A stretch of 64,000 nt of DNA from Lingula anatina (lineage: Eukaryota > Animalia > Brachiopoda): contig CM120641.1 in the NCBI GenBank assembly GCA_051362555.1, positions 37,144,401 through 37,208,400 on the forward strand, read 5' to 3'. The notes below the pieces were generated by a model, which saw nothing but the letters and a program-made list of their open reading frames with translations, was not told the DNA's origin and made no database searches. Position 1 is the stretch's first letter; every line of letters starts with the position of its first letter. Of the stretch, positions 3,105 to 51,776 are shown piece by piece. A program made the translations under genes and the position numbers.

Positions 3105-6100
3105 CTATATTTCAGTAGCCGTTGCCCCAGCTATTCTGTCCACAGTGTGGATTTCACTGCCCAGTTGTGTGTGGTGATGACCTGATATCGTTTCCATTGT
3201 CTCATCCTCACTTGGACGCACAGACCTCAGGAAAAGTGCTACCACAGTAAAAGTTGCAGCATTTACTGGAAAGGCCCTTAGTAGAGTAGAGTTTAGCCCA
3301 GTCCATAAGCACCCATGCCCTTCAGCTTTAATAGATTTTTGGAAACAGTCATAAGCATTTTTATACTGATTTGGACCATTTGCCCCATCAGCTTGTATCC
3401 GAGACTTGATAACATCAACAGGGTAAGTAGCAATCCATGAAGCCATACCACTGAAGCCCCCTGCCATTAACAACCCTAACATACTCACATCATCATCAGG
3501 TTGCTCTACCATCTTTCTACACAAATACTCATAAGTAGCAAAATAAATTCCAAAACTGGGTGTTTCTCTCACAACGGTGAGAGTAAAACCTTTAAACACC
3601 CCAGGAATCCCATGTGCTTTGTAGATCTTCCTCAGGCAATCAATTGGACCTGTATACAAATGTTTTGTGGTTTTGAACTGTGTTCTTGATTCACCCTGCC
3701 CTTGAATCTGCATCCTTGTTTTGGCCAGTTCCATGGGACTGCACACTACACACTGTACAAGGCCAGCTGTAGCCCCTGCCAAGAAGTGGCTCTGTAGTGT
3801 ATCTGGATTGGCCATTCTTCTCTGAACATTTCCTTGGACTCCAAAGACTATGGCATTGATAAGTGCTAATCCGTAAAGTGGAGAAGCCATCCCCTTGTAT
3901 AATCCAAGTGCCTAAAAACATACCATGGTTCACAAATTGTATAATTTCCAAAGAAAAAAAAATGCATGTACATAGCAATATCTCAAATGCTGATTAAAAG
4001 AGTTATTGGTATTTTGTGATATCATAGTGAAAACTCTGAAGGCATTGCTGGAAATTTGGATCAGCTAGAATCTATATGCTGTTGATCCTGTCAAAATATT
4101 GTCGACCCAAATATTTTTTCGTTACACATCACATAAAACATTAATTTTAATTCAATAGTACTGGAACATGATTACAGTTATTAAAACAATTTCTTTCACA
4201 AATATATATTTAGTAAGAGTAAGATATAAAGTCCAACTTAATAAATCTGTGTTCATTAAAAATCATGAATATACTTTTAAGTATATTCATGATTATTAAT
4301 GAACATGATTTTTAAAAAGTGAAAACTATTTGGACATGCAAAGGGAGTTAAAAAATATTGCAGGTTTACTGTCTATTTGGTCTAATAAATGCATGAATTT
4401 TACCAAAACTGATGGCGTGACCTCATCAGTAAATAAAGGTATGGCAGGGCTGGAGCAAATGTGACCCAAATATTTTATTGCACGGCCCTCATTGAATCAA
4501 CCCTCTGACCACAGGTGTTGCAAGTTATCTTTTACAAACCCTTACTAGCAAAACATCAGGCCTGTTGCTGCAAATTCATAGTGAAATTGTAGCAAATTTG
4601 CTTGCAATATAGCTGCAAATTAACAGAAATAAATTTTTTCTTGCAAAATAGTGCACACTCGTTGCTACAACCAGATGTGCCATCCCCACAGGGGCCTTGC
4701 AATTAAACCCTGAAGCCAAGATTTAATCCATGTGGAGGCTCGGAGACCATTAGGAAATTACGTGGGGTCTGTCATATTCAGTCAGCAGATCGGTTAGTCT
4801 GTGGATCATCTGTTTTGAATATGACCTAAGAGTAGACAAGATGATCATCTCAGTTCCCACAGGGTCTCTTCTTCAATTTTGTACACTATACTAGAGACCC
4901 CTGTGATATCAGAGGATACATCAAATCCCAGTAAAGATCCTATTTAAAGCTGATGTGTATGCTACTGTAGGCTTAAAAAACTCATAGGTTCAGGCCGTTT
5001 ACTAGCACTACCTGCAAATCTTTGAGCACTTACACCTGTATTAACCACCTAACCCACAAATTAACCAGCACTACTAAAGCGGATAAATGTTAGTGCTAGC
5101 TATCCGTTTGTTGGTGCTAAATAATTGTAAGGTGTGCTGGTTCATTCGTGGGTTTGGTGGTTAATATGGGTGTTTGTAGTAAAAGTGGGTAGCGTTAGTA
5201 AATGCTTAAACCATTTATAAGGTCTAGGGTTATTATCAATATCAACATAAACTCACAGATTCTTTTGCTACAATGGTCCTGAAGCATTCAAAAGTCCCTT
5301 TATAAAGACGTTTTGCTGGATCTTGTGTTTGTAGCCGTACCTGAAATAAATAAAACAACTCTTATCTAGACCAGACAGGATGTTTGTTGTCAGTTATCAA
5401 GTATTGAAGATCTTTACAAGCCTGTGTGAAGTTGTGAACCCGTGACATTGCTCAGTAACATGTTCACTTGTTATTATGCAATATGATACCACCATTCTTA
5501 GACCCCATTCCCATACCAAGATCTCCAAGGGGATTGTCGCAAAATTGCATTCAGATTAAGCATTTTAGGTGTCTGGCATTCCTACTGAAGCTGCATAACG
5601 ATAGTTAATTGCTCCCTAAAAGCTTCAGTAGGCGTGCTGGACATCATAGCCGCTTATGGTGCTTGTAATTTAGGGAGAAACCCCTTTGAGATTAGTTAAT
5701 CCTGCTAGATCGATCTAGATATGGGAATGGGGTCACAGAGAAACTTCAAACCCAAAACATACTTGACTTTAAAAATGAAACAAGTAGACCGACAGACAGA
5801 GAGACAGACACTGATTAGCATGCAAATTCTTAATTATCATTCTGGTGATTATGTCAAGATCAAAGGAAACACGACCATTTCATGGTCCAGCTATAGAAAA
5901 CCCTGACACAATGACAGTGTTTTCCAAACATAACATGGGCATTATTCTGATGTAAATGCATTCACATTTGATAGACTCTCATAATCCACAAAGGAATAAT
6001 ACTTCTGTCGCTTATGGCTTCTCATCACATTCCAGAGTATTTAAATTATAGTCCAGGCCCAGTTTCATAATACATAATTATCTTACACAAAGTCCACTCT

Positions 6101-7346
6101 AATTCTTTTGCTATTGAGCTGTGTTTTGAATCTTTTTGAGTCCATCAAATTGCACAACAGTTTGTTATTCAGAACACTAATATAATTTACCTTCACAGTA
6201 TCAAATGGATGGCCAACCAGAACCCCAGCACACCCTGTAACAATAAACATGCAATGACCACAAAGAACCAGGGGTATTCACAGTTACAAAAATACAATTT
6301 TTTGTTACATATACAAGATGGAAATACATGACATCTACAAATAAATTTTAAAGAACTCAGTTTATGCGGCTAGCTTAATAAACACAAATGCATGCATCCG
6401 GTTCATAGTTTATCGTAAGTGGTATTTGCATTCAGACTAACACTGATTACTCATACAACTAGTGGCTGTTCTATTATATTGGTAGACAAAATCACTTTTG
6501 TTTTTGGTATATGCTGGTATATTATAGAGTCACTTGTGTAGTGTTATATGGTTGTAGCAGCTAAAATTCAGACTCGGTCATGATCTTTTTTGGGGGGTGG
6601 GGGGAGGGAGGGGATGTTGAATCCAAAATTTGGGCTATTTTTGAGCATAAAAATGGACTCAAAACAGCAGCATCAAGATTCTTCCTGGGGTCAAGATTTT
6701 CCGATTTATTTAAATTAAAAACAAATTAGGGTCAGCAGCACCTATTGATCAGATTATTAATTGTTTGTCCTAATCAAAATTAAGTTTTAAAATTGACTTC
6801 CATGCAGTAAACAGAACAGGAGACACTGACCCCACATCTTTCACATAAATCAATGCTAAGAACTCTAACATTAAAGCTATCTGAATATCCTATCTGCATT
6901 TTCACATTTGGGAGGTTTGGTAAATAACAAATAATACATTGATAGCTGATGCAATACCGATTGTCATTGTGAAAAAAAAAAAAAAAAAAAAGGAAAAACA
7001 GCCCATTAAAACATTAGGATAGAACTGAAGTGATGCTTCTAAATCAGTTGTTTGTGTTTGCATGGCAATTTTTTGACAAGAACAAAGTAATTCCACACAA
7101 TTTCTCCCAAAACAAAACAATATTTTAATCAACATTATCTCAATATTTTTTCAATAAGATACAATCACGTTTTTTTTTAGTATGCAAAAAAGGGGGGGAG
7201 GTAATATCGACGACCTCTTAACTGTTATAAACCGTGCTGCGTATATACTACATGATCTTCTTTTAAAATTAAAACATAATACGCATTAAATAGTACTAGA
7301 AAATATATGTACCTCCAAGGCAGCCCGCCACAAAATCCAGCGCCAT
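3105..7346 (-). CDS. SLC25A29: Mitochondrial basic amino acid carrier, SLC25A29-like (4 coding exons, ~322 aa)
   Basis: Exons 7313-7346 (MALDFVAGCLG), 6191-6234 (GCAGVLVGHPFDTVK), 5257-5340 (VRLQTQDPAKRLYKGTFECFRTIVAKES) and 3105-3911 (ALGLYKGMASPL...stop). All introns are GT-AG and phase-compatible. Three carrier signature motifs: PFDTVK, PMELAK, PVDVIK. The N-terminus matches the recalled human MALDFLAGCAGG. Confidence 0.92.
4250..4305. repeat. Near-perfect AT-rich hairpin in SLC25A29 intron 3
   Basis: GTTCATTAAAAATCATGAATATACTT-TT-AAGTATATTCATGATTATTAATGAAC: 26-bp arms, one mismatch, 2-nt loop. Confidence 0.85.
4990..5215. mobile_element. Degenerate palindromic MITE-like element
   Basis: Imperfect inverted arms, e.g. 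ATTAACCACCTAACCCACAAATTAACCAGCAC versus GTGCTGGTTCATTCGTGGGTTTGGTGGTTAAT. Boundaries are approximate. Confidence 0.6.
5500..5735. mobile_element. MITE of the GATCGATCTA family (PIF/Harbinger-like)
   Basis: Termini GACCCCATTCCCATA...TATGGGAATGGGGTC with an internal palindrome CCTACTGAAGC...GCTTCAGTAGG. Close relative at 8771-9023. Confidence 0.75.
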
Positions 7347-10272: not shown

Positions 10273-13200
10273 ATGGATGCCACTGGTGGTGTGAACGATT
10301 ACATAGCAGGATGTTTAGGCGGTAAAATACCTGATTATACAATCAATTTGGGTAGATGATGTAACTTCACCAAATAGTTTTATTTTAGATGCTATTTTTT
10401 CAGTTGAGTGTAGGATATTATTAGTATTTAAGACTTTTTTTAAATATAACTTGCTTGTCAAAAGATTTTGAAGCTGTTTGTTTTCTAAATTTGGAAAATA
10501 TGTGTATTAGTATAGATGCCAATAGTAAAATGAGGTAAAATGGTGAAAATTTTTATCTAGAAAATATATTTGGTTGCTTTTTCTGTAGTCCTAGGGCTTC
10601 TAAACACTGCTGTTTTAGGGTTTGGTTTCCTAGTACGGTTGAAGTTCATTGTATTAGAAGAATAGTTGCTTTCTTTGCGTTCATTATTATTTGTTTTTAT
10701 TTAGGAATAGCAGGGCTTGTTGTAGGGCATCCCTTTGATACAACTAAGGTATACTCAAATTTTCTCATAGTAAATTGGTTAAATTTTTATTTTTATACAT
10801 CCTTTTATTTTTTATTATTCATCATTCTTTATATAATTTTTCTTTGCAACTATAATTTTTAATCATATTATTTTAATTAGTGATGAGAGACCTTTTTTTC
10901 ATCAAAAGATCAAATGTTGTGAAAGCAGTGTGTGTGTGTATGCGTGCATGCTTACTTGCCTTTTGTCAAAAGCATACCAAAGTGTGAATTTTTTGTTAGG
11001 TATATCGACATAGGTTTATTGCTTTTCTTTTCATTTTCACTGAAACTTCCACCTTTGTATGCTTCAATAAAGGTCAATGAATTTGTTATTTTATAAGTGA
11101 AGAGAAGAAGAAGCAATTTTTTTGGACAAACTTGTAAAACAAAATGAACCAATATGGTGCAATTCCAACTATGCCGAGTAAAATATCTATTCTCAACACA
11201 GATATCTTTGAATTTTGAGTACAGTAAATTGTCTGCATCTGAATTGTTCTTGTCTGACAGAAAAAAGATCAAATGAAGTCCTTGAAGTATTTTGCAATAT
11301 ATATAGTATTTGTATTAAGACTGTGTTGTTTAAAATGGCTTCTTTTGTATGTTATTAGGTTCAGATGCAAACCCAGCTGGCAGGCCATCATTACAAAGGT
11401 ACATGGGATGCGATCAAGAACATCTATCATCATGGGCTGGTAAGATGTGATAGAAATTTCTTGAACTATGATAACAACCATTTAATTCACACATTCTGAA
11501 AAATTGACTTGTCCAAATGGAATTGTACTGACTATGGGTTTTGGACCAGTGGCTAAGTTCGCAGACTGCATACTTTTCATTCTTAGACTTTGTTTTCATC
11601 AACAAGAAGGGCCACCTATTTCAAAAAATGTTTTAATCTATTTTATCAACAAATGGTATTTTTGAAAAAAAGAAAAAAGATGGGGTTTTGTAGTTCTTTT
11701 GTGTGCCTCATAGGTGATTTTTTTTTGGGGGGGGAGCAGAACTGAATCCATCAATTTCCTTTGGATCCACCTATGAACGCAATTCAAAAAGTGTGAGATA
11801 TCAGTTTATTTGCTATACAAGGAGCATTAACCGTTACTTTAAAGACGGACAATAAAACATTTTTTCAGGGAAGGGGCTTCTTCCGTGGGCTTTCATTTCC
11901 ATTGGTTTCATATGGGGCTATTAATTCAGTCTTCTTCGGTGTGTATGGAAACAGTCTCCGTTGGTTGCATCCAGACACCACAACTCAGCCTTCCTATAGA
12001 GACATTTATATAGCTGGATGCATCGGGGGTACTGCCCAGTTGGCTATTGCTTGTCCCGTAGATGTAGTAAAAGTGGTGCTGCAGTCTCAGATACCACACG
12101 GTAACGGTAAGTAGCCAGTGGCTCCATGGCCAAGCTTATCTCAAAATAACATTGAATGGTATAGCTTTTTTTTATTTATTATTTTTTTTATTAATGGTTA
12201 ATATTGTCAGCTAAAAGAAAGAATTAACTTCCTTTTACATAGTTCGGTGTTGTCTCTTTATTTTGTGATTACTGATAATGCAGGGGCGGATACAGAGATA
12301 TTTTCTGACAGTCTTCCAAATTATCTTTGATGATTCATCCTCCATTTTTGACTGTCTTCCGACAGAAAAATTAGATATTCGTCACGGTAAACTTGAAAAT
12401 CTGATCGTCTTCCAAAAGACCCAGAAGACAGTCTCAATCTGCCCCTGTTATAAATAGTAATCTTAGGATATACAAATTTTAGTACTAGTAATTTATCACA
12501 AGTATGATATATAATGCATTTGACTAATTTGTCTCTTGGGCCATATGTTTCTGGATGTTATAGTTACAGTTAGTTGAAATTACCTTGGAATATCTAAATT
12601 ATTTCTATGTACATGTTAGGTCTGATAGATATATGTATTCACACTGCAAGTCATTTTTTTTATCAAACATAATGCAATTCATTTTCAATGCCTAATTATA
12701 AATGTACACTCTAAGTGACATTTTGACCCTCTGACCAACTTTTTTTGTTTCAGTAGTCGTTAATAGTAAACAAGAAATGCTTCATCTCAAAAATAATACC
12801 AACACACTGGGCAAATAAAGCTTGGAAATGGCTATTGCCTGATTTTCTTGTTTCAGTTATTATTGCAAGCAAAGAAAAACTTCTTTTTTGGGTGGTTAGG
12901 GGGAGTAAATGAAGGAGAAAGTAGATGGTTTTATTATGCAGGAATGTTACAGGCTCTCTTTATTGCATAAAACATCTAGTGATACTAAATTGATTGAAAA
13001 GGAAAAAAGAAACAAGGACATGGATCTTACTTCTTTGGCTGTTACTGCAATCAGCACATACTTCAGGGGCGGATTTAGGGCGTCTTCTGGGTCTTCCGGA
13101 AGACGGTCAGATTTTAAAGTTTACATTGACAGGTATCTAATTATTTCTGTCGGAAGACGGTCAAAAATGGAGGATGGATCAACAAAGATAATTTGGAAGA

Positions 13201-15836
13201 CTGTCAGGAAATAACTCTGGGTCCGCCCCTGTACTTGGCTGATTAATGTGCATATGGAAAGAAAATTAGTAAGTAAAATTATTAACTGCATGGATAATTC
13301 TTACACTTGATAAACTAACATTGAATTTGTATTCATGTATATATTCTAATTACCTAGCTTATCCAAATATTCTTTGTTGCTGCCTTTGCTCATCAGGTAC
13401 ACATTTGCTCCCTAACTGACATACTGTGTTTCTGATTTATTGCTTATTTTGTTTTTGAGGGTATTAGCATGTTTTTTTTTAAATTCTATTCTCAGTCATT
13501 TGAATGCACATGCACACATACCAGTAATACCAGTACACTATGTATATTCAAATAGGGTGTGCTGAAGTGAAGATTGCTGAAATTTTCGGGAAAATTTATT
13601 CTTTGTCTAGTTGACTGGTTCTCCTACATGTACCTTGAAATTATATTGCAAAATTTAATCGTTTGACTGGGTATCCCACACTTATTGTTGAGGTTAAGAT
13701 TTTTTCATCAAAACATTAAAGTCCCAAGTGGTTGTTTAGATAAATTGTCTTTATCATTGTGTCAATTAATGTATGTGCTTGTTACATCCACAGGGTTGCA
13801 CCAGTACTTCAAAGGTCCAATAGAATGCATGAGAGCCTTGTATAAACATGGAGGAATACAAAGTCTGTATCGTGGAAACTGCATAATGTTTATGCGGGAC
13901 ATTCCTGCTCAGGTTCTGTACATGGGAACTTTTGAGGGAATGCAGGATGTTTTGCATGTCTACGATATCATAACCCGTGGTGCTGTGTTGTCGCACTTGC
14001 TCTCAGGTGGAATGGCGGGTGTGATCAGCTGGTTGGCTATAATGCCAGCAGATATTGTAAAAAGCCGTCTACAGGCAGACCACAGTGCACACACCAAGAT
14101 ATACTCTGGAACTTTGAACTGTATATCTAAGATGTATGTGGAGGGTGGACTGAGAATTTTTTACACCGGGTCTTTGGTGACTGCCATTAGAGCTTTCCCT
14201 GTCAATGCAATAATCCTAGCTGTGTATAGCCAATCACTGATTTATATGAAGGGAAAGGAGAAATGATACTTGAACAAACTTTGAACAATATTTAAAGCAA
14301 GTGTAATATTGTAGTGCCCACTTCTATCAAAGAAAATGTTCTTAAGGACTTAATTTGGTTGAAATTAGTCATATTATCACATCTTACAAATATTACAAAA
14401 TAAAAGTTATATGTCTTAATTTAATTGATAGGAAGAAATGTAAAAAAAATTACTGATCTTTACCATTTTGGATCTATGTAGAGCTATATATCACTCTTCC
14501 TCTCACATGCCTCCCCACTTGTCGTCCCTGCAGAGGCACAGTTTACACTTGGATATTTTCTAAACACCAATATTGAGCTATCTGATCTTACTAATAAACT
14601 TCTTTGCATCAGTCAGATGAAATTTCTTTGTGGTCAATAAAAGAATTGCATAGAAGATTACCTAATTACAAGAACAAAACAAATCAAGACCTGAAGTTGA
14701 AAGCCAGTTGCACAACTTCTTGTATGTATTAAAACTGCATCAGATATGTTTTCTTGTTTACAGTGAATGGAGTGGAAGTTAATATTAATACCAGTTATGC
14801 ATGTGGTTAAACTTGAGATCCCTTGATTCCTATGACGAGTATCTTTAATCCAGTTTTGTGGAATATTGTTTTGTAATTCTCCCAGGGTTAAACAGTCCTG
14901 AGAAACAATAATTGCTGTTTGTGACTTGGATCCTGGGGTTTGTGATTGCGATCACCGATTCAAGATTTCACGTTGATTTCCTGTTGTGATCAAAAAATGT
15001 TTGTTGCAAGCACCACAATATAAACCGCGAATGATTTAGCCAGCTTTTATCCAGGTCTCTCACTGTTTACATAAGGGTTCTTTTTCATGAGCTTTATGTG
15101 CTGACAATAATCTGTGGCATATACAGAACATGCCGAATGGGAAGGTGCCAAATGCACCATGAAATTACATTTTAAGTCATTTATTCTGTGATCACAATCA
15201 CAAATCTGCTGTTTAAAGTAACAAACAGTAATTTCATTTATATGGCCTGTTAAATATATCATGATATGAAATTGAGCTTAGAATTGTGGTCTTTTTTTTT
15301 TAATTTTAGAGAAGACTCGTTCTGGGTACTTCAAGGGGCCTTTGGAATGCATGAGCAGCATATACAGACAGTGTGGCATAAAGGGCATGTATCGTGGTAT
15401 GTACAGCATGGCATGGAGAGACATTCCAGCTTATGGGCTTTATCTTCTTGTCTATGAGGCAATGTACGATGGTATGCAAAGAACACAGTGGTTTGACAAG
15501 CATGGAATTTTTGCTAGTCTTTTTGCTGGTGGATGGGCAGGGGTCATATCATGGTCAGTCATCATCCCTTTTGATGTGATAAAAAGTCGCATCCAGGCAG
15601 ACATGCATGGCCTGGTTTATAAAAGCACCACTGATTGTATACGGAAGACATACCAAGAAGGAGGGTATAGAATTTTTTTCACAGGGCTAGTTGTAACTGC
15701 CATTAGAGGGTTTCCTACTTGTGCTGTTACATTCCTAGGGTATTCACAAGCTTTAAGGTACCTAAACCAAATCCACGCAGAACCAGAAACCATTTGTCAT
15801 CAGCCAGAGATTGTTAGTGCTGAGGTTGTCAAGTAA
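10273..15836 (+). CDS. Mitochondrial carrier, SLC25A45/47/48-like, with two alternative terminal exons (isoforms ~294 and ~312 aa)
   Basis: Shared exons 10273-10321 (MDATGGVNDYIAGCLG), 10705-10748 (GIAGLVVGHPFDTTK), 11359-11439 and 11869-12106 (GRGFFRGLSFPL...QPSYRDIYIAGCIGG...PVDVVK, ending in phase 1). These join either 13794-14266 or 15310-15836. The first two intron positions match the SLC25A29 neighbour. Confidence 0.88.
12281..13231. mobile_element. Two ~167-bp MITE copies in inverted orientation (12281-12447 and 13064-13231)
   Basis: Both have CAGGGGCGGA...TC(C/T)GCCCCTG termini, and their interiors are reverse complements of each other. The second copy is flanked by a 5-bp TACTT duplication. 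Confidence 0.85.
13794..14266 (+). CDS. Alternative terminal exon A of the SLC25A45-like carrier (helices H4-H6)
   Basis: Phase-1 acceptor CCACAG|GG TTG. Open frame YFKGPIEC...MRDIP...PADIVKSRLQAD...IRAFPVN...stop. AATAAA at about 14399 and 14593. Confidence 0.85.
15310..15836 (+). CDS. Alternative terminal exon B of the SLC25A45-like carrier (helices H4-H6)
   Basis: Phase-1 acceptor TTTTAG|AG AAG. Open frame YFKGPLEC...WRDIP...PFDVIKSRIQAD...IRGFPTC...stop. AATAAA downstream (about 16125 and 16423). Confidence 0.87.
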
Positions 15837-18672
15837 AAAATTGCCAGCTTAAGGAAAACATTACTATGTCGTTTTTTGATAGCTATAAAATACCGGATTC
15901 ATTGTTCAGCAGATTATTATTTTTGGTGTTTCAAAAAAAAAAAAAAAAAATTGAAGAAAAGAAAGAAAAAGAGAGCTAACCCCATGCACATCAATTGATT
16001 CCATTGATATAGGTGTTATGGCAGCCTTTAAATTACAAACTCAGGAAATTTTAATGTTATATATAAACAGCAGCACGTAGTAAATTTTTTCTTCTTCCTA
16101 AATGATTAAGATTACTTGGAGGTAAATAAATTAGTTTAGATATGTTGAATAAGTGTTTCAATCAACTTTTGTTTACATGCAAGAAGTAAGTTATTTAGTT
16201 ATAGAATTATTTTATGAACAATTCATGAGATTAACTTCTTCATGACATGTACAATCATTAGAATAATAGTATGTTTAATTTATAAATATTTTATCATCAT
16301 TATGGCATTCTTTAAGGAGGAATATGATATTTGTTCTGCTAAAATGACAGTAGATTTGAAGTATGTTTTGTAGTTTGTATTTTTTAAGCCCATTAGTAGT
16401 GTAGTTTCTATGTTTATTGGTCAATAAAATGCCATTTTTATTGCATTTTTATGTATTACATTGCCATAATATATGTATTTCATGTTACATTTTTACAAAA
16501 GGAAATGCATATGATTACATGCATTTAAAAGTTTTCAAGAATTCTTTATAAGTGTAAATGTGGGTTTCACATAACAAACACACCAAAATATGCGAGTACC
16601 AGTCATCTCACTCCATTCTGTGGTATACATTAGTAAGTGGGTGAAATATTGACAACAGCAGACTAACATATCCGGGGATCAAATGTGGCTGACCCAATTG
16701 AAAGCTTGTTGCATTATCCCTGCGGAGAATCTATTCATCGTCAATTATGGGATTTATGTGGCAAGCTTTTAAGTGGGTTCCCATTTTTAATATGCGGGTC
16801 TGTAAGTCTGCTGTTGTGAATTCAGCCAATGTGACCCACCAGTAGAGACCAGGTATGACCAGGGTTTACTGTGATAAATCGCATAATTCACTGTCTCTGA
16901 GGGAAAATTAGGTCTGTGCAAACTGAATTTCTTGTGGGACCAAAGAAAGGGGCTTTGTATAATGTTGGGTATTGCTCTGGCAATTCTATGATAACACCTA
17001 AAGAGTGCCATGGAAATATTTGATGAATTTTATGAGTTAAAAGTCATAGCATATATGTCTACACATGCACATTTGATAATGTTATGGAAGTCCAAATTAA
17101 AGGCTTGGTTAAGACATACTTAACCAAAGATATATAAATATAAACATACAAAAACACTAGTTTGCTCAAATTACTAATTTCCCTTAGTATAGATCTTCCT
17201 TTATTACTATACAGATATTTAGATTCCGTAACAGCACTTTTTATGACAAAAGAAGTTGTTACCATTCTTCTTTTAACAGGCATGAAAGACCTGTTTTAAA
17301 GTTTTCAAGTCAGTAATGTTATGCTTTAATGCTTTTTCTTGCTAGAACATTTTTGAGTTGACAGTATAACTTGTTTATTTTAGAACAAATATCAGATGAA
17401 CATGAACTGAAGCAACCAATAAGGCTGCTAGATTTTGTTCCCATTATTATTTAATAATTAATTATGTGGTAATAAAAATAACTTTATTTGCTTATTTTTC
17501 TAGCCTAGCATATGCTTTTTCTTTGGTTATTTGATATTTATTGAACAATTTGCACATGCTCAGTATATGGAATATGATATGATATACAAAAATATTGTTG
17601 ATCTTATGAGATTATTTTCAAAAATTAATGCAAAAAGTTTCTTTATTTAATATATTATATGCACATTTCTAGTGAATGAAGTCACATTTTCTGCCAAATA
17701 TTACTTGACTTTTAAAAGTGGAAGAATGTTTTTATTATTATTATTATTATTTTTTTTTTTAGTTTGGAAAGGTTATTCAGGTATCTTAAGTTTGTTCATA
17801 TTACATGAGATGACATGAATTGCCAATTACAGAATCTGATGTTAACTGTATAAAATCCACCAAAGCATGACTTACCAATGAACATAATATTTGAACTACA
17901 GCATTTTGTGTTTCATTTCAATTGCGTAATAAATGGATATCTGTTAACTGGAAATTTGATATTGTTATTTGTTATACAAAAAAATTAATTCACTTATTGT
18001 GCCATGTAAAGAATTATGATTCACTTAAAAGCTTACCTTTAAATAAAAACGATTGCAAAAATTACTTCTTAGTCAATGCTAAACCTCCACTATTTATTTT
18101 GTGAAATTAGAATGTCATGTGTTCCTTTTTTAAATTAAATCTAAACTTCCAGAGCACACTAACAACTTACCAGATAAATAATCATTATTGGTCCCATCAC
18201 TATCATTTCTTATTAAAATGCTTTTGGCTTATATTGTTACATCAAATATCACTTTTCATACACCAGTTGCTACTAGGCGACTTTTCTCACCAGATTCATC
18301 ATGTCCAATGAGTGTTCTATCTTTCAACCTGCTGGAATTCTTCTTTTGTCATCCTTCTTATGCCCGTTAGGGTGTCGAGGGGAGAACTAAAAATGCAGTT
18401 TCCACAAATATAGCTTCACAGAAAACGGGCATGACATAACATTAATGTTGACTGCACTACTATTGCTCATGTAAGTCGTGTCATGTTACAAAAAAGTTGT
18501 TGTTAGAAATGATCCAAATACAGGTATTCCAAATGTACAAAGGCCATAAATGGTTTCTGCATAATTATTTTTGCAAAATCTGAATCTCAACCCTCTCCTT
18601 TGTTATTTCATTCCTTTAAGTCATACTGCATAGATGTCACTTTTGAGAAGAACATATCCTCATGAGATGTAG

Positions 18673-22234: not shown

Positions 22235-22912
22235 TTACTGTACATAACACAAATTTTTTGGAGAATTAAAAATGTGGGTTTTTAAAAGAGATTTAAAATG
22301 GTCAAAGTCTTCTGTTTTTGTAATAAAATTTGGTAGGGCATTCCACACTTTTGGGGCGTAGATTATAAAAGCACGATCTCCATAACTTTTGAGGCACCCC
22401 TTCTCTAAAACAGAATGTTCTAAAATAAAATCATTCTCAGTATTAAAATGTGTGGACCGCCGTGGTAAGTTAAAACAGATAAGATCAGATAAATATAATG
22501 GTCCTTGTGAATGGATCGCCTTAAAAATAATACAAAGTACTTTAAAATCAATCCTCTGCTTCACAGGCAGCCAGTGTAATTCTTTCAGAATGGGATTGAT
22601 ATGGTGTGTACTATTGCACTTAATTTGACAAACCAGTCTTGCAGCTGAGTTTTGAATAACTTGTAACTTTTTAATCTGATAGTCACAAATACCAAAGAGG
22701 AGACTGTTGCAGTAATCTAATCTTGATGATATAAATGCATGTACTAATTTTTCAGTGGTTTTGTTATCTAACACTTTCCTTATTTTTCCAATGCGCCATA
22801 GTGCATAAGATGCTGATTTACACACTTCAGATGCACGCTTCCCCATAGTGCCATTTTCATCGAGGGTAACTCCCAGATCTTTTACAGAACTAGATGGTTT
22901 TATAAGAATTTA
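22235..22912 (-). mobile_element. 5'-truncated non-LTR retrotransposon (CR1/L2-group) ORF2 C-terminus
   Basis: Reads VKDLGVTLD...HAFISSRLDYCNSLL...LQVIQNSAARLV...LKELHWLPVKQRIDFK...YGDRAF..APKVWNALP..FKSLLKTH, which is the typical post-RT region of L2/CR1-group LINEs. Confidence 0.9.
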
Positions 22913-24004: not shown

Positions 24005-27000
24005 TAATTGTACCACCAGCGTTAGCGCTGGCGGTACACATGGTTTCGGTCCCGTCCGGATCGTTCCGCCGGCTCCGCCGGCTCCGCCGGACGGCTACCG
24101 TTACCGCTTCTCCTCCTAGACGGTAAGGGCCCCCGTACCCATCTCATGGATTTAGGTCACCTATAATCTCAACTCGTTCCACGTAAAATTTGGGCTTTGT
24201 CGGTATTGGGGTCTGGGTGTGGCACTCATTGCAATGCACCCTTGTCTAAAAATGGCAAAATTAAATGCTAATTATCTACCCTACGGAAGGAGTTATGGGA
24301 AAAATTTCTATAGACGGCTTTCCAAAAGTCATATGTGTAGATTTCAAATATACTCTTGGATTTGACCTTTGACCTTTACTTCAAGGTCAAATGGGCCAAA
24401 ATTTTCAAAAAAATTAAATTTTTTACGAAAAATTTTTTTTTTGCCCTGTTATTCAGACACCACACAGACTTAACCAATAATATTATTGGAAGGTGTTACC
24501 CTTCAGGTCATCTTTCATCTCCATGAATTTGGGGTCAATCGGTGCATTTTCACGGGAGTAGCGGCCATAAGAAACCGAAACTGAAAACTGTCTCTAATTC
24601 GGGAACCGTTAATGCTAGAGACCCATTCTTTTTTGCATTTTGTAGAGCATGTAAAGCCCAACACTGGAGGTGGTCTCGGTTTTTTTGTATTCCATACGGT
24701 TTTCGAGTTACGCTGTATCAAAAAGTACATATTGGTGGTAAAAGCAAAATGTGCAGTACTGTAATGGATAATAAATTTTGAACTCTGGAAAAATAAAACA
24801 TAAGGCTTGGCAAAGCAGACAACTTGTGTTAAAAAATGACATTATTTCATCAAATTTGAACTTCTGAAACTTCAGAGCACCTCCTATTTCAAGAATTTTG
24901 ACCAAAATGACATTTTCTTTATTTTAATTAATTTTTTCTGTACGAAATTTAAGGCACATTATGGTAACTCCAAAATTATAACATTTAGTTCCTTATATCT
25001 CCAAAACTGGCAGAGATAGGTCCATAGCTACTATTGAAGTTGAATAGGAAGTCATATACTGGCAATCTTACTATGACCTTGAAAGTGACCTTTGACCTAC
25101 TTTTCACCATGAACTGAACTTTGCAAATTTTTCTTCCCTTTTATCTCCAAAACTGGCAGAGATAGGTCCATAGTTACTATTGAAGTTGAATAGGAAGTCA
25201 TATACTGGCAATCTTACTATGACCTTGAAAGTGACCTTTGACCTACTTTACACCATGAACTGAACTTTGCAAATTTTTCTTCCCTTTTATCTCCAAAACT
25301 GGCAGAGATAGGTCCATAGTTACTATTGAACTTGAATAGGAAGTCATATACTGGCAATCTAAATGTGACCTTTAAATTGACCTTTGACCTACTTTTCACC
25401 ATAAACTGAACTTTGCAAAATTTGCTTCCCTTTTATCTCCAAAACTGGCAGAGATAGGTCCATAGTTACTATTGAACTTGAATAGGAAGTCGTATACTGG
25501 CAATCTAAATGTGACCTTAAAATTGACCTTTGACCTACTTTACACCATGAACTGAATTTTGCAAATTTTGCTTTCCTTTTATCTCCAAAACTGGCTGAGA
25601 TAGGTCCGTAGTTACTATTGAACTTGAATAGGAAGTCATATACTGGCAATCTAAATGTGACCTCAAAATTGACCTTTGACCTACTTTTCACCATAAACTG
25701 AACTTTGCAAATTTTGCTTCCCTTTTATCTCCAAAACTGGCAGAGATAGGTCCATAGTTACTATTGAACTTGAATAGGAAGTCATATACTGGCAATCTAA
25801 ATGTGACCTTGAAATTGACCTTTGACCTACTTTTCACCATGAACTGAATTTTGCAAATTTTGCTTCCCTTTTATCTCCAGAACTGGCTGAGATAGGTCCA
25901 TAGTTACTATTGAAGTTGAATAGGAAGTCATATACTGGCAATCTAAATGTGACCTTGAAATTGACCTTTGACCTACTTTTCACCATGAACTGAACTTTGC
26001 AAATTTTGCTTTCCTTTTATCTCCAAAACTGGCTGAGATAGGTCCGTAGTTACTATTGAACTTGAATAGGAAGTCATATACTGGCAATCTAAATGTGACC
26101 TCAAAATTGACCTTTGACCTACTTTTCACCATAAACTGAACTTTGCAAATTTTGCTTCCCTTTTATCTCCAAAACTGGCAGAGATAGGTCCATAGTTACT
26201 ATTGAACTTGAATAGGAAGTCATATACTGGCAATCTAAATGTGACCTTGAAATTGACCTTTGACCTACTTTTCACCATGAACTGAATTTTGCAAATTTTG
26301 CTTCCCTTTTATCTCCAGAACTGGCTGAGATAGGTCCATAGTTACTATTGAACTTGAATAGGAAGTCATATACTGGCAATCTAAATGTGACCTTGAAATT
26401 GACCTTTGACCTACTTTTCACCATGAACTGAACTTTGCAAATTTTGCTTCCCTTTTATCTCCAAAACTGGCAGAATTAGGTCCATAGTTACTATTGAACT
26501 TGAAAAGGAAGTCATATACTGGCAATCTAAATGTGACCTTAAAATTGACCTTTGACCTACTTTACACCATAAACTGAATTTTGCAAATTTTGCTTTCCTT
26601 TTATCTCCAAAACTGGCTGAGATAGGTCCGTAGTTACTATTGAACTTGAATAGGAAGTCATATACTGGCATTATAAATGTGACATTAAAATTGACCTTTG
26701 TCCTACTTTTCACCATAAACTGAACATTGCAAATTTTGCTTCCCTTTTATCTCCAAAACTGGCAGAGATATGTCCATAGTTACTATTGAACTTGAATAGA
26801 AAGTCATATACTGGCAATCTAAATGTGACCTTGAAATTGACCTTTGACCTACTTTTTATCATGAACTGAACTCTGCTAATTTCTTTCTCTTTTAACTTCA
26901 AACTTGACAGAGATAGGTCCATAGTTACTCTTGAACTTGAATAGGAAGTCATATACTGGCAATTTACTGTGACCTTGAAATTGACCCTTGACCTACCTTA

Positions 27001-37590: not shown

Positions 37591-38321
37591 GCTCTTCTCA
37601 TTCTGAATGGCCCCTTTCATTCTGAATGGGGATTTAGAAGAGAAGCACAATTATGTACTTGTTTTTAAAGGGAAGAAAATGCTAATTTAGGTGGATTGCT
37701 ATATATAACTATACCAAGGGATTAAAGTGCAAGGGTTTAATTTTGATACCATCATTTTTAAGATTGGGTAACTCATGACTTTAAGGTAGTACATGTTCCG
37801 GTTCTTCAAACATGATCATAAAAGCAGAATGTGTGAAATGGATAATTTTTGACTTGCATCAGTTGAAAGTTATTGATGACCTGTCACCTTGTTCTTGTCA
37901 GAAATACATTAGGGTGATTGAAAATGCTATGCTGATATCCTGGAGCAATCTGCAGATGTTTAATAATTTAAATGCACTTTTATTGTTGTATTGCATTAGG
38001 ATTAGATGTAGCTGTAGCAATGAACTAGACAGCTCATTGTCTGTAGTAACACAATAAGATGTTCCCTGACATGATAATAAACTCAGATTGTATTAGAGCC
38101 GAGTTATAGAGTGGGTGAAATGGATTTTCAACGAGAATGTGCGCAGCTTTAACAGCTATGGCTAGTTTTGCTGCCTAATGCTAAAAAATACAGGGGTTTA
38201 GATTTTAGTGGAGAATATTCATTGAGTGAGTATCTGAACAGCAGGCCTTTTTACCTACTGAGAGGTAAAGAAAGCTGCAACTGGTGGTATATACTTCCAA
38301 AGGGATAACAAGAACCTGATA

Positions 38322-39311
38322 ATGGTACCAGTTAATGGGACTGAGGATGACTTTTATTTTGCAGATAACAATACTGAAGATGAAAATGGTCCATACTATT
38401 ACCAGACAACATTATACAAAGTATTGGTTGTGTTTGCACTTGCGCTAGTCATGGTCATCATATGTTTTGGAAATCTGTTGGTCATCATCACCTATGCATG
38501 TGTGCAGAAACTGCAAACACGTGGCAATATTTTCATAATACATCTAGCAGTGGCAGACTTGTTATTAGGATTCCAGATAATTTTTCAAATCGTATCAATT
38601 TTTATACCTCTCAAGTCTCTGACCCTATGTATCTTGCGATACTCACTGTTGGTTTTCCCTTCAAGCGCTTGTAATTTAACACTGTTGGTTCTAACTGTGG
38701 AGAGATATTATGCTGTGTTCCATCCTCTGAAGTATCATACTTGTGATATGAAAAAATGGTTTTATGGCATAACTGTGTTAATTTGGATCCCTGCATTCAT
38801 ACTTGGATTTCTGTTACCATTTATGTGGCACAAGGATTGGACCTTTGAAAAATCCCATGGTTGTGAATTTTCTGTAATTCTGAAAGAGGATTTTATTACT
38901 TGGGTTATATCACTACCGTTCATCCTGTCAACAGTCAGCATTTTGGTTCTATATACCAAAATTATAAAGGAAATCGGAAAACAAATGAACAGAATTGGAC
39001 TTCAAAATGACAACGGAATACTGACACCTCATCAATCTATTGACAGACATACACAGATTTCTTCACAGAAAATAAAACTCTGTAAGACTGTTGCTCTCAT
39101 TGAGATTTGTTATTTGGTTTGCTGGGTCCCTTTTATATTATTTATAGCAATTCATGCACTAATGCAGTTGGAATACACAGTTATTGCTATAAATGTTCGC
39201 TTCTGTTTGGGAATTCTGCTTGCTGTTAACTCTGCATTGAATCCATTTATATATGCTGTACGAACGCCAGATTTTCGTAAGGCCATTCGAAAAGCAGTAA
39301 CTAGACAATGA
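38322..39311 (+). CDS. Intronless class A (rhodopsin-like) GPCR, copy 1
   Basis: 329-aa ORF with seven hydrophobic segments and GN, LAVAD, ERY, CWVP and NPFIY motifs, plus N-terminal N-glycosylation sequons. Position 3.32 is Leu, not Asp. Confidence 0.92.
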   Translation: MVPVNGTEDDFYFADNNTEDENGPYYYQTTLYKVLVVFALALVMVIICFGNLLVIITYACVQKLQTRGNIFIIHLAVADLLLGFQIIFQIVSIFIPLKSLTLCILRYSLLVFPSSACNLTLLVLTVERYYAVFHPLKYHTCDMKKWFYGITVLIWIPAFILGFLLPFMWHKDWTFEKSHGCEFSVILKEDFITWVISLPFILSTVSILVLYTKIIKEIGKQMNRIGLQNDNGILTPHQSIDRHTQISSQKIKLCKTVALIEICYLVCWVPFILFIAIHALMQLEYTVIAINVRFCLGILLAVNSALNPFIYAVRTPDFRKAIRKAVTRQ

Positions 39312-50272: not shown

Positions 50273-50783
50273 TGTATGGTGTCTGGATATTTGCCAGCTT
50301 TGCTGCCTAGTTGACTTTGCATCAGTAGAAAGTTATTGTCACCTCTTTCTTGTTCCTATCTGTAATTCATTGTGCAGATTGAAAATGCTATTATGATATT
50401 CAGAGACGTTTTGCAGATGTTTAAGTTAATGCATTTTAGTTGTTGTATTGCATTAGGATTAGATATACTGTACTCTGTAGCAATGAACTAGTTAGCTCAA
50501 TGCCTGTAGTAATACAATCAGATAATCTCTGACACAGCAATTGACTCAGATTGTATAAGAGCTGAGATAAAGAGAAGGTGAAATTGATTTTCAACAAGAA
50601 TGAAAAAGTGAGCAGCTGTAACAGCTGTGACTGGTTTTGCTGCCTAATGCTAAAAAATACAGGGATTGAGATTTTAGTGGAGAATTTATTAAATGAATAT
50701 TTGAACGGCAGGCCTTTGTAACTACTGAGAGGTAAAGAAAGCTGCAACTAGTGGCACACTTACAAAGGAATAACTTAAGCCTG

Positions 50784-51776
50784 ATGATGATACCAGTGAA
50801 TGGGACTAGGAATGACTTTTATTTTGCAGATAACAATACTGAAGGTGAAAATGGTCCATACTATTACCAGACAACATTATACAAAGTATTGGTTGTGTTT
50901 GCATTTGCACTAGTCATGGTCATCATATGTTTTGGAAATCTGTTGGTCATCATCACCTATGCATGTGTGCAGAAACTGCAAACACGTGGCAATATTTTCA
51001 TGATACGTCTAGCAGTGGCAGACTTGGTATTAGGATTCCAGATAATTTTTCAAATTGTATCAATTTTTATACCTCTCAAGTCTCTTACCTTGTGTATCTT
51101 GCGGTACTCTCTGTTGAGTGTCTCTTCATTCGCTTGTAATTTGACACTGTTGGTTCTAACTGTGGAGAGATATTTTGCTGTGTTCCATCCTTTGAAGTAT
51201 CATACATGTGATATTAAAAAATGGTTTTATGGCATAACTGCGTTAATTTGGACCCCTGCATTCATATTTGGATTTTTGATACCATTTGTGTGGCACAAGG
51301 ATTGGACCTATGAAAAATCCCATGGCTGTGAATTTTCTGTAATTCTGAAAGAGGATTTTATTACTTGGTTTATTTCACTACCATTCATCCTGTCAACAGT
51401 CAGCATTTTGGTTTTATATACCAAAATTATAAAGGAAATCAGAAAACAGAAGAACAGAATTGGATCTCGAAATGCCAACAGGATACTGACACCTCAAAAT
51501 GCAATTGACAGACATACGCCAATTTCTTCACAGATAATTAAACTCTGCAAGACTGTTGCTCTAATTGAGTTTTGTTATTTGGTTTGCTGGGTCCCTTTTA
51601 TGTTATTTATTGCCATCCATGCACTTATGCGGTTGGAATACTCGGTTATTGCTATAAATGTTCGCTTCTGTTTGGGAATTTTGCTTGCTGTCAACTCTGC
51701 ATTGAATCCATTTATATATGCTGTACGAACGCCAGATTTTCGTAAGGCCATTCGAAAAGCAGTAACTGGACATTGA
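50784..51776 (+). CDS. Intronless class A GPCR, copy 2 (paralog of 38322-39311)
   Basis: Same motifs as copy 1 and mostly identical sequence. The first ATG is at 50784 (the ORF track starts at a GTG). The flanks 50370-50780 and 51776-52200 are also homologous to the copy 1 flanks. Confidence 0.92.
   Translation: MMIPVNGTRNDFYFADNNTEGENGPYYYQTTLYKVLVVFAFALVMVIICFGNLLVIITYACVQKLQTRGNIFMIRLAVADLVLGFQIIFQIVSIFIPLKSLTLCILRYSLLSVSSFACNLTLLVLTVERYFAVFHPLKYHTCDIKKWFYGITALIWTPAFIFGFLIPFVWHKDWTYEKSHGCEFSVILKEDFITWFISLPFILSTVSILVLYTKIIKEIRKQKNRIGSRNANRILTPQNAIDRHTPISSQIIKLCKTVALIEFCYLVCWVPFMLFIAIHALMRLEYSVIAINVRFCLGILLAVNSALNPFIYAVRTPDFRKAIRKAVTGH

What the first reader, a model, noticed from the sequence alone, without database searches (positions are those of the whole stretch)
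11869..15836. Mitochondrial carrier with a swappable C-terminal half: two duplicated, intact, mutually exclusive terminal exons
Seen in sequence: one set of N-terminal exons (H1-H3) ends in a phase-1 donor. It is followed by two homologous but strongly diverged exons (13794-14266 and 15310-15836), each with a phase-1 acceptor, an uninterrupted frame for H4-H6, its own stop codon and downstream AATAAA. I see no second copy of the N-terminal exons in the 1 kb between them, so this looks like one gene rather than two. Established knowledge: in SLC25 carriers, substrate contact points 2 and 3 lie on H4 and H6. Both exons keep the amino-acid-type RD (MRDIP/WRDIP) and the H6 Arg, but the neighbouring residues differ (AQVLY/AYGLY, RAFPVN/RGFPTC). 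Inference: alternative last-exon choice yields two transporters sharing half of the binding site, with different specificity, kinetics or tissue use. Both frames staying open despite deep divergence argues for selection on both.
Basis: partly seen in the sequence, partly recalled or inferred. Interest (0 to 1): 0.85.

Follow-up and report, generated by a model that had tools for sequence, protein, structure and literature searches.

The report
Mitochondrial carrier with swappable back half
A lamp-shell gene for a mitochondrial transporter splices its front half onto either of two old, duplicated last exons, so one gene codes for two transporters that share one half and likely differ in how fast or how tightly they carry related amino acids.

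Summary
Confirmed. Four shared coding exons (10273-12106, helices H1-H3) join either exon A (13794-14266) or exon B (15310-15836), each encoding H4-H6; the two are 46% identical. RNA reads show both joints: 15 reads to A in 7 of 8 runs, 40 to B in 6 of 8; no A-to-B joint is listed. The gene matches Lingula anatina SLC25A45-like records, where RefSeq already models both forms automatically. dN/dS between the exons is about 0.3, with A evolving faster. What differs is the upper cavity and cytoplasmic gate. There, relatives fall into an aromatic and a small-residue class, mostly as separate genes; Lingula makes one of each by splicing, and RefSeq models suggest an independent case in the acorn worm Ptychodera. 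The event type is known (77 human C-terminal swaps; SLC25A3 among carriers); swapping half a carrier barrel was not found in my searches. Transport differences are untested.

The parts
10273..10321 (+). Shared coding exon 1 (from the ATG), start of H1
   Evidence: joint 10321-10705 read in 8 of 8 runs
10705..10748 (+). Shared exon 2, H1 signature motif; skipped in a minor form
   Evidence: skip 10321-11359 in 6 reads, 2 of 8 runs; matches RefSeq isoform X3 of 279 aa
11359..11439 (+). Shared exon 3, matrix helix of repeat 1
11869..12106 (+). Shared exon 4, H2 (contact point I) and H3; phase-1 donor used for both last exons
12281..12447 (.). Short high-copy repeat (MITE-like; label inferred) in intron 4
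   Evidence: inverted to 13064-13231 at 82-92%; high read depth with loose ends
13064..13231 (.). Second copy of the repeat, opposite orientation; likely absent from some alleles
   Evidence: joint 13058-13232 skipping 173 bases with non-splice ends, 7 reads in 2 of 8 runs
13232..13268 (+). 3' end of an extra exon with a GT donor at 13269, spliced to exon A; its 5' end was not found; no in-frame route
   Evidence: 12 reads in 4 of 8 runs; 0 of 40 and 0 of 29 candidate AG acceptors keep the frame
13794..14266 (+). Last exon A: H4-H6, gives a 294-aa protein (RefSeq isoform X2 type); small/polar class at H4
   Evidence: joint from 12106 in 15 reads, 7 of 8 runs; model pLDDT 92.6
14399..14641 (+). 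Candidate poly(A) signals after exon A (AATAAA at 14399, 14593, 14636); use not mapped
15310..15836 (+). Last exon B: H4-H6 plus a tail of about 20 residues, gives a 312-aa protein (RefSeq isoform X1 type); aromatic class at H4
   Evidence: joint from 12106 in 40 reads, 6 of 8 runs; model pLDDT 77.8 from a shallower alignment
15837..17500 (+). Likely 3' UTR of form B (AATAAA at 16125, 16423, 17471); end not mapped
   Evidence: sense-strand depth in stranded runs

Best explanation
One SLC25A45-like mitochondrial carrier gene splices four shared exons (helices H1-H3) to either of two duplicated last exons (helices H4-H6), predicted to give two complete carriers that likely bind the same class of cationic amino acid but differ in gating, and so likely in rate or affinity. 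Shown: the layout, both splice joints, open frames, intact carrier motifs, and selection on protein sequence since the duplication. Inferred: the single-exon back half was duplicated in tandem long ago, probably on the brachiopod line; the choice is made by competition between splicing to the nearer, weaker acceptor A with cleavage after it, and skipping to the stronger acceptor B; B keeps the ancestral aromatic residue five places after contact point II, while A lost it, lost the H4 tyrosine brace and changed a likely hydrophobic-plug residue on H6, as paralogs in other phyla have done.
For: Both joints read, both within the same run in 5 of 8 runs; no A-to-B joint listed. RefSeq lists both forms at two scaffolds. 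dN/dS about 0.30; identity by codon position 58/67/38%. Of 28 columns at least 90% conserved in 67 relatives, A and B each depart at one. The A form models as a six-helix carrier (pLDDT 92.6; TM 0.81 to UCP1). All 10 front-half positions named for human SLC25A45 (contact point S65 plus the nine cavity positions L17 to K124 of the trimethyllysine docking model), mapped through a frog ortholog, fall in the shared exons; R173, D174 and R268 are the same in A and B (PMC12594208; bioRxiv 10.64898/2025.12.16.694762). Differences: H4 R+5 Tyr/Gln, R+6 Gly/Val, R+12 Tyr/Phe; H6 R+5 Cys/Asn, R+8 Thr/Ile, R+9 Phe/Leu (B/A). The C-terminal parts of H4 and H6 are the gate elements (PMC12410006); R+5 matches R187 of the ADP/ATP carrier, which lines the upper cavity (PMC9046947); changing the cytoplasmic network changed Vmax far more than Km there (PMC4674015). 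Acceptor B has 16 pyrimidines in 20 bases, A has 12.
Against: No transport, protein or 3'-end data. A looks less constrained: it departs from the majority residue where B keeps it at 29 columns against 14 the other way (p 0.03); among the read variants shown, A had 2 synonymous and 2 amino-acid changes, B 9 and 0, shared exons 8 and 0 (the variant tables were cut, 351 and 284 rows not shown). 12 of the 27 reads entering exon A come from a donor that cannot keep the frame. No close relative of exon A was found outside Lingula, so conservation of the pair is unshown. Both forms lack the basic residue of the cytoplasmic network motif on H4 and H6, so the brace loss may matter little. The origin is unresolved: A+B sisters in 162 and 543 of 1000 bootstraps in two trees.
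Confidence: 0.6

Rival explanations
1. The swap changes which substrate is carried (for example methylated lysine or arginine against choline, betaine or a carnitine precursor), through the aromatic or small residue in the upper cavity and the linked H6 residue.
For: Aromatic at H4 R+5 goes with Phe at H6 R+9 in 57 of 67 relatives (37 both, 20 neither). Molluscs, Owenia, Lineus and Glandiceps hold both classes as separate genes. The label needs 7 changes on the back-half tree. The Ptychodera pair differs at this same site (Phe/Ser). PMC13385207 proposes that the H4 region helped set specificity in this subfamily (passages).
Against: Contact residues are identical and the modelled side-chain pocket is shared. 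The classes were picked after looking at the alignment. The Ptychodera site is 1 of 26 differing columns.
Confidence: 0.2
2. Exon A is a weakening spare copy: it is transcribed and spliced, but its protein adds little, and its use mainly lowers output of form B.
For: Faster evolution of A, amino-acid variants between haplotypes (2-3 differences from RefSeq copies over 155 residues against 1 over 174 for B), a frame-breaking donor into A, fewer reads (15 against 40).
Against: An open frame with all carrier motifs after near-saturated synonymous change is unlikely without long selection. A departs at 6 of 42 conserved columns against a median of 3 and a maximum of 8 in relatives. A's joint equals or exceeds B's in 3 of 8 runs.
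Confidence: 0.13
3. The two exons are the back halves of two ancient tandem paralogs (small class and aromatic class); one lost its front exons and now shares those of the other, or Lingula keeps an ancestral two-exon gene that other phyla split into two genes. This concerns origin only.
For: After B, exon A's best matches by identity are mostly small-class proteins. An AU test does not reject A plus the small class as one clade (p 0.18). In several molluscs and Lineus the two classes lie on contigs of the same length, likely the same chromosome.
Against: Without the five class-defining columns, A plus small class is a clade in 0 of 1000 bootstraps and A+B in 543. At the 11 other columns that separate the two mollusc paralogs, A and B score alike (6:3 and 7:3).
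Confidence: 0.25
4. Two separate genes, or an assembly artefact.
For: RefSeq holds the locus on two scaffolds, which suggests haplotype duplication in that assembly.
Against: Reads join the same donor to both exons; no second set of front exons lies between them; the exons are only 46% alike and both RefSeq copies carry both forms.
Confidence: 0.01

Closest known systems
Tandem duplicated exon substitutions at the C-terminus (77 of 236 human events; PMC9741552, PMC8373072, passages)
   Same: Consecutive homologous exons used in different transcripts, swapping one C-terminal region for another by alternative 3' ends; key ligand residues kept in both versions.
   Different: Those C-terminal swaps are described as enriched in tails, coiled coils and single helices and as tending to avoid ligand sites. 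Here the swap is about half of one transporter domain, with two of three contact points. Human events reach just over 250 residues, so size alone is not a record.
[quoted passage not shown]
   Same: A mitochondrial carrier with two homologous alternative exons giving two isoforms, tissue-biased in mammals.
   Different: SLC25A3 swaps an internal exon near the N-terminus; here it is a last exon covering H4-H6 with its own stop, in the cationic amino-acid carrier group.
Human SLC25A45 (methylated amino acids, trimethyllysine) and SLC25A48 (choline)
   Same: Same subfamily by best hits; contact residues S65, R173, D174, R268 match S72, R, D, R270.
   Different: Lingula belongs to a lophotrochozoan group apart from the vertebrate and hemichordate branch; four modelled pocket positions differ from the human residues named in the papers (I66, V69, L73, L117 against Y, I, F, A), so the substrate cannot be carried over.
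Ptychodera flava SLC25A45-like isoforms X3 and X4 (XP_070572164.1, XP_070572165.1; automatic RefSeq models)
   Same: First 139 residues identical, then different back halves starting in the same loop; one aromatic and one small residue at H4 R+5.
   Different: Back halves 87% identical and sisters inside a hemichordate clade (956 and 978 of 1000 bootstraps): younger and independent. Its DNA and RNA were not seen; it could be a mis-joined model of tandem genes.
RefSeq models of this gene (XP_013384824-7, XP_013406144, -147, -148)
   Same: Both forms and the exon-2 skip are already listed as isoforms X1, X2, X3.
   Different: Automatic labels only; no paper on them appeared in my searches.

Membership tests
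SLC25 mitochondrial carriers | Three Px[DE]xx[KR] motifs on H1, H3, H5 | tested here: met
   Present in both forms; Pfam Mito_carr above cut-off for exon 4, A and B
SLC25 mitochondrial carriers | Six-helix, three-repeat fold | tested here: met
   Predicted models of the RefSeq A and B proteins; A matches UCP1 and ADP/ATP carriers, TM 0.64-0.81 for the 13 best-ranked chains. B was not fold-searched.
SLC25 mitochondrial carriers | [YF][DE]xx[KR] cytoplasmic network on even helices | tested here: inconclusive
   H4 has YE (B) or FE (A), H6 has YS in both; the basic residue is absent in both forms
SLC25 mitochondrial carriers | Transport across the inner membrane | not testable with these tools
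   Needs reconstitution and localisation
SLC25A45/A47/A48 subfamily | Best matches and R[DE] at contact point II, R at contact point III | tested here: met
SLC25A45/A47/A48 subfamily | One-to-one orthology with vertebrate SLC25A45 | tested here: inconclusive
   Vertebrate A45 and A48 group with hemichordates, apart from the lophotrochozoan set; only one A45 and one A48 were in the tree, no A47
SLC25A45/A47/A48 subfamily | Carries trimethyllysine, dimethylarginine or choline | not testable with these tools
   No assay
Tandem duplicated exon substitution, C-terminal type | Consecutive homologous exons of at least seven codons | tested here: met
   46% identity over 155 residues, E about 1e-43
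Tandem duplicated exon substitution, C-terminal type | Used in different transcripts, never together | tested here: met
   Same donor to either acceptor; no A-to-B joint reached the listing threshold in 8 runs; A's stop also bars joint coding use
Tandem duplicated exon substitution, C-terminal type | Chosen through alternative poly(A) sites | tested here: inconclusive
   Signals present, ends not mapped; low depth continues between A and B
Tandem duplicated exon substitution, C-terminal type | Conserved across species and tissue-biased (typical, not required) | tested here: inconclusive
   No other brachiopod sequence was recognised among the hits; A:B ratio differs between studies (7:34 against 8:6 reads, p 0.012) but tissues are unknown
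Internal mutually exclusive exons (Dscam, MRP, SLC25A3 type) | Exons are internal and rejoin a common downstream exon | tested here: not met
   Each exon ends the frame with its own stop

The most novel reading that the evidence does not exclude
SLC25A45-like carriers of many animal phyla keep re-inventing the same two-state switch (aromatic or small residue above contact point II, linked to a plug residue on H6), which sets substrate choice or transport mode. Most lineages do it with two genes; Lingula and, independently, Ptychodera do it by swapping half the barrel at splicing. These natural chimeras with an identical front half would map a specificity element that current binding-site models place in the other half.
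Probability: 0.22. Interest if true: 0.78.

Novelty: new variant of a known kind. Interest (0 to 1): 0.5.

Why it matters
How mitochondrial carriers pick their substrate is named as an open question in a 2025 review (PMC12410006), and a 2026 study argues that carrier subfamilies arose by recombining helix segments between genes (PMC13385207). This gene does such a recombination at the RNA level, in living cells: two carriers with an identical H1-H3 half and H4-H6 halves only 46% alike. The pair is a ready control for testing what the back half contributes to specificity and rate in a subfamily whose human substrates were found only lately. As a splicing event it is a known kind and is already in automatic annotation, which limits the surprise.

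Tried and rejected
Run search: no RNA holder was listed by index; nine same-species raw-read runs were offered and 8 were laid, about 6% of six runs and 25% of two. No whole genome is held, so paralogs elsewhere in this genome were not searched. Ortholog of exon A in other species: none above 48% identity in a word-indexed search (9 hits) or among the best 150 of the 50% representatives; clustering at 50% can hide one. Other species with the same layout: 136 proteins, 9180 pairs; identical H2-H3 with a diverged back half only in Lingula, Ptychodera and one scallop pair, which proved to be orthologs of two species; only the best 120 of 262 hits were seen. Gene models with two back halves in a row: none among 34 fetched proteins of 345 aa or more. 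Shared docking or selector sequences beside A and B: blastn found similarity only in coding parts; the long inverted repeats are the two intron repeats, both upstream of A; a 54-base inverted pair between A and B (74%) was not followed. Age and origin by trees: front-half and back-half trees are unresolved at depth; AU tests reject neither A+B (p 0.24) nor A plus small class (p 0.18). No solved structure of this subfamily among 10 PDB matches. No complex prediction was made: nothing here claims binding. Earlier scan notes near this place or like this protein: none.
Full report
Observation. The window holds a plus-strand carrier gene with coding exons at 10273-10321, 10705-10748, 11359-11439 and 11869-12106, then two candidate last exons, A (13794-14266) and B (15310-15836). 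All borders are GT-AG, the donor at 12106 is phase 1, and both joins read open to a stop, giving 294 and 312 residues. A and B are 46% identical (71 of 155). A permissive tblastn finds no second copy of the front exons between them. Exon 4, A and B each pass the Pfam cut-off for Mito_carr.

RNA. Nine raw-read runs with the same species label were offered; 8 were laid, about 6% of six runs and 25% of two. The joint 12106-13794 (A) was read 5, 1, 1, 1, 0, 4, 1, 2 times in X1-X8 (15 reads, 11 start places, 7 of 8 runs). The joint 12106-15310 (B) was read 13, 8, 13, 0, 2, 0, 2, 2 times (40 reads, 35 start places, 6 of 8 runs). Five runs show both. No joint from A to B was listed (threshold: 3 reads at 2 starts). 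The ratio differs between studies: 7:34 in P1 against 8:6 in P2 and P3 together (Fisher p 0.012 on reads, 0.022 on start places); reads are not independent and tissues are not given, so this is a hint only. Two side forms exist: exon 2 is skipped in 6 reads in 2 runs, and a donor at 13268 joins exon A in 12 reads in 4 runs. None of 40 (or 29, without the intron repeat) AG sites between 12500 and 13260 gives that extra exon an open frame into A, so these molecules are likely non-productive or start inside the intron.

Identity. The front half is 100% identical, and A and B 98-99% identical, to RefSeq proteins named SLC25A45-like of the brachiopod Lingula anatina. RefSeq lists the B form as X1, the A form as X2 and the exon-2 skip as X3, on two scaffolds. 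So both forms are already in automatic annotation.

Selection. Over 154 codons dN is 0.54 and dS about 1.8 (pS 0.68, near saturation), a ratio near 0.3; identity by codon position is 58, 67 and 38%. A neutral copy of A stayed open in 0.65% of 2000 simulations at 0.5 substitutions per site. Of 28 columns at least 90% conserved among 67 relatives, A and B each depart at one; of 42 columns at 75%, A departs at 6 and B at 4, against a median of 3 and a maximum of 8. A has changed faster: B is closer to the relative in 56 of 70 comparisons, A in 11. Among the read variants shown, shared exons had 8 synonymous and 0 amino-acid changes, B 9 and 0, A 2 and 2; the tables were cut to the best-supported rows. 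AlphaFold2 models both RefSeq proteins as six-helix carriers (pLDDT 92.6 with 105 rows for A, 77.8 with 14 rows for B), and A matches UCP1 at TM 0.81.

What the swap changes. Human SLC25A45 imports methylated amino acids; S65, R173 and R268 are its proposed contact points, and R268A blocked the dependent metabolism (PMC12594208, passages). A docking model puts the carboxylate on Q113, R173, D174 and later R268, and the trimethyl group among L17, I66, V69, N70, L73, L117, F120 and K124 (bioRxiv 10.64898/2025.12.16.694762, passages; its supplements were not seen). Mapped through a frog ortholog used as a numbering proxy, all 10 front positions lie in the shared exons, and R, D, R are the same in A and B. 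A review proposes that contact point I on H2 separates substrates within a class, and that the C-terminal parts of the even helices are the gate elements with the tyrosine brace and hydrophobic plug (PMC12410006, passages). The A/B differences fall there. Counting from the contact arginine: H4 +5 Tyr in B, Gln in A; +6 Gly, Val; +12 Tyr, Phe (brace); H6 +5 Cys, Asn; +8 Thr, Ile; +9 Phe, Leu. If R-D matches G182-I183 of the ADP/ATP carrier (PMC13385207), +5 matches R187, which lines the upper cavity; F191 and L287 form part of the plug (PMC9046947, passages). That H6 +9 matches L287 is my inference from the distance to the gate tyrosine, partly recalled. In the ADP/ATP carrier, weakening the cytoplasmic network cut Vmax and mostly left Km (PMC4674015, passages). 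Hence the best reading: same substrate class, different gating. Against it, both forms lack the basic network residue, so the gate may be weak in both.

A recurring two-state pattern. Among 67 relatives, H4 +5 is Tyr or Phe in 39 and Ser, Asn, Ala, Cys or Val in 28; it goes with Phe at H6 +9 in 57 of 67. Several molluscs, Owenia, Lineus and Glandiceps have separate genes of each class. B is aromatic, A is not. I chose these columns after seeing the alignment. Without them, the small class is not a clade (0 of 1000 bootstraps, with or without A), A and B are sisters in 543 of 1000, the label needs 7 changes, and A and B score alike at the other 11 columns that separate the mollusc paralogs. This leans to a duplication on the brachiopod line with convergent change in A. 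It is not settled: an earlier tree with all columns gave A+B 162 of 1000, and AU tests reject neither A+B (p 0.24) nor A plus small class (p 0.18). Trees used 33 to 72 chosen named proteins; unnamed hits and most fragments were left out.

A possible second case. Ptychodera flava isoforms X3 and X4 share their first 139 residues, then differ from the same loop on; the back halves are 87% identical and differ Phe/Ser at H4 +5. They are sisters in a hemichordate clade (956 and 978 of 1000), so the event would be independent and younger. These are automatic models; I saw neither DNA nor reads. Among 136 proteins (9180 pairs) the only other candidate was a pair of scallop orthologs.

How the choice is likely made. 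A comes first and has the weaker acceptor (12 pyrimidines in 20 bases against 16) and AATAAA signals before B. Use of A with cleavage behind it removes B; skipping A reaches B. This is the route described for C-terminal duplicated-exon swaps (PMC8373072, passages). It is inferred; 3' ends were not mapped. No shared flanking element pointing to competing RNA pairings was found.

Known kinds and novelty. Tandem duplicated exon substitutions are catalogued: 236 in human, 77 C-terminal, often convergent, enriched in ion channels and membrane proteins, with ligand residues kept (PMC9741552, passages; PMC8373072). SLC25A3 is the carrier example, with an internal exon pair (PMC7226361, passages); it was the only SLC25 hit in the one supplementary file held for PMC9741552, which may not hold the full list. 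Searches for this gene or for a half-carrier swap gave nothing relevant by title and abstract start: carrier + mutually exclusive + exon duplication (4 papers, 2 listed), alternative last exon + duplicated + homologous + tandem (22, 19 listed), Lingula + alternative splicing + mitochondrial carrier (0), SLC25 + isoforms + alternative last + exon (11). The library lacks most subscription journals. PMC10027655 was seen as passages and added nothing on splicing. Earlier scan notes show similar duplicated exons in other invertebrate transporters; they are unchecked leads and suggest the kind is common.

Verdict. Real and expressed; a new variant of a known kind of splicing event, unusual in swapping half of a transporter barrel. 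Functional difference likely but untested. Interest 0.5.

Noticed in passing
window 3105-7346, minus strand: A second carrier gene lies head to head with this one, start codons about 2.9 kb apart; Pfam Mito_carr. It looks like the basic amino-acid carrier SLC25A29 (name from recalled motifs, not searched). A shared promoter is possible; human SLC25A29 and SLC25A47 are neighbours too (recalled).
   Followed up: partly
window 13058-13268: An extra exon ends at a good donor just behind an intron repeat that seems absent from some alleles, and supplies 12 of 27 reads entering exon A; its start is unknown.
   Followed up: partly
window 15982-16540 and 16544-17100: In runs X1-X3 depth nearly vanishes over 15982-16540 and returns on the sense strand over 16544-17100, with no joint listed: a divergent allele, an unlisted UTR intron or a repeat.
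   Followed up: no
P0059 and P0078 (Haliotis rufescens): Mirror pattern: back halves 98% identical, H2-H3 86%. Tandem genes with conversion, or alternative front parts.
   Followed up: no
window 38262-39311 and 50736-51776: Two closely similar intronless-looking GPCR frames on the plus strand (7tm_1 for the first) flank a JAMP-family gene (about 42-43 kb, minus) and a proline-racemase-family gene (about 46.5-48.5 kb, plus); the human counterparts JKAMP and L3HYPDH are neighbours too (recalled).
   Followed up: no
window 22235-22909 (minus) and about 25400-27000: A 224-residue frame without Pfam match that reads like the end of a LINE reverse transcriptase (recalled), and an array of related repeats near 25.4-27 kb.
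   Followed up: no
window 14910-14963 and 15180-15233: A 54-base inverted pair (74% complementary) between exon A's poly(A) signals and acceptor B; could be chance or a small repeat.
   Followed up: no
P0086, P0090, P0093, P0128 (scallops): A scallop paralog group has lost the proline after contact point II and carries a run of aromatic residues there, a third state of the same site.
   Followed up: no
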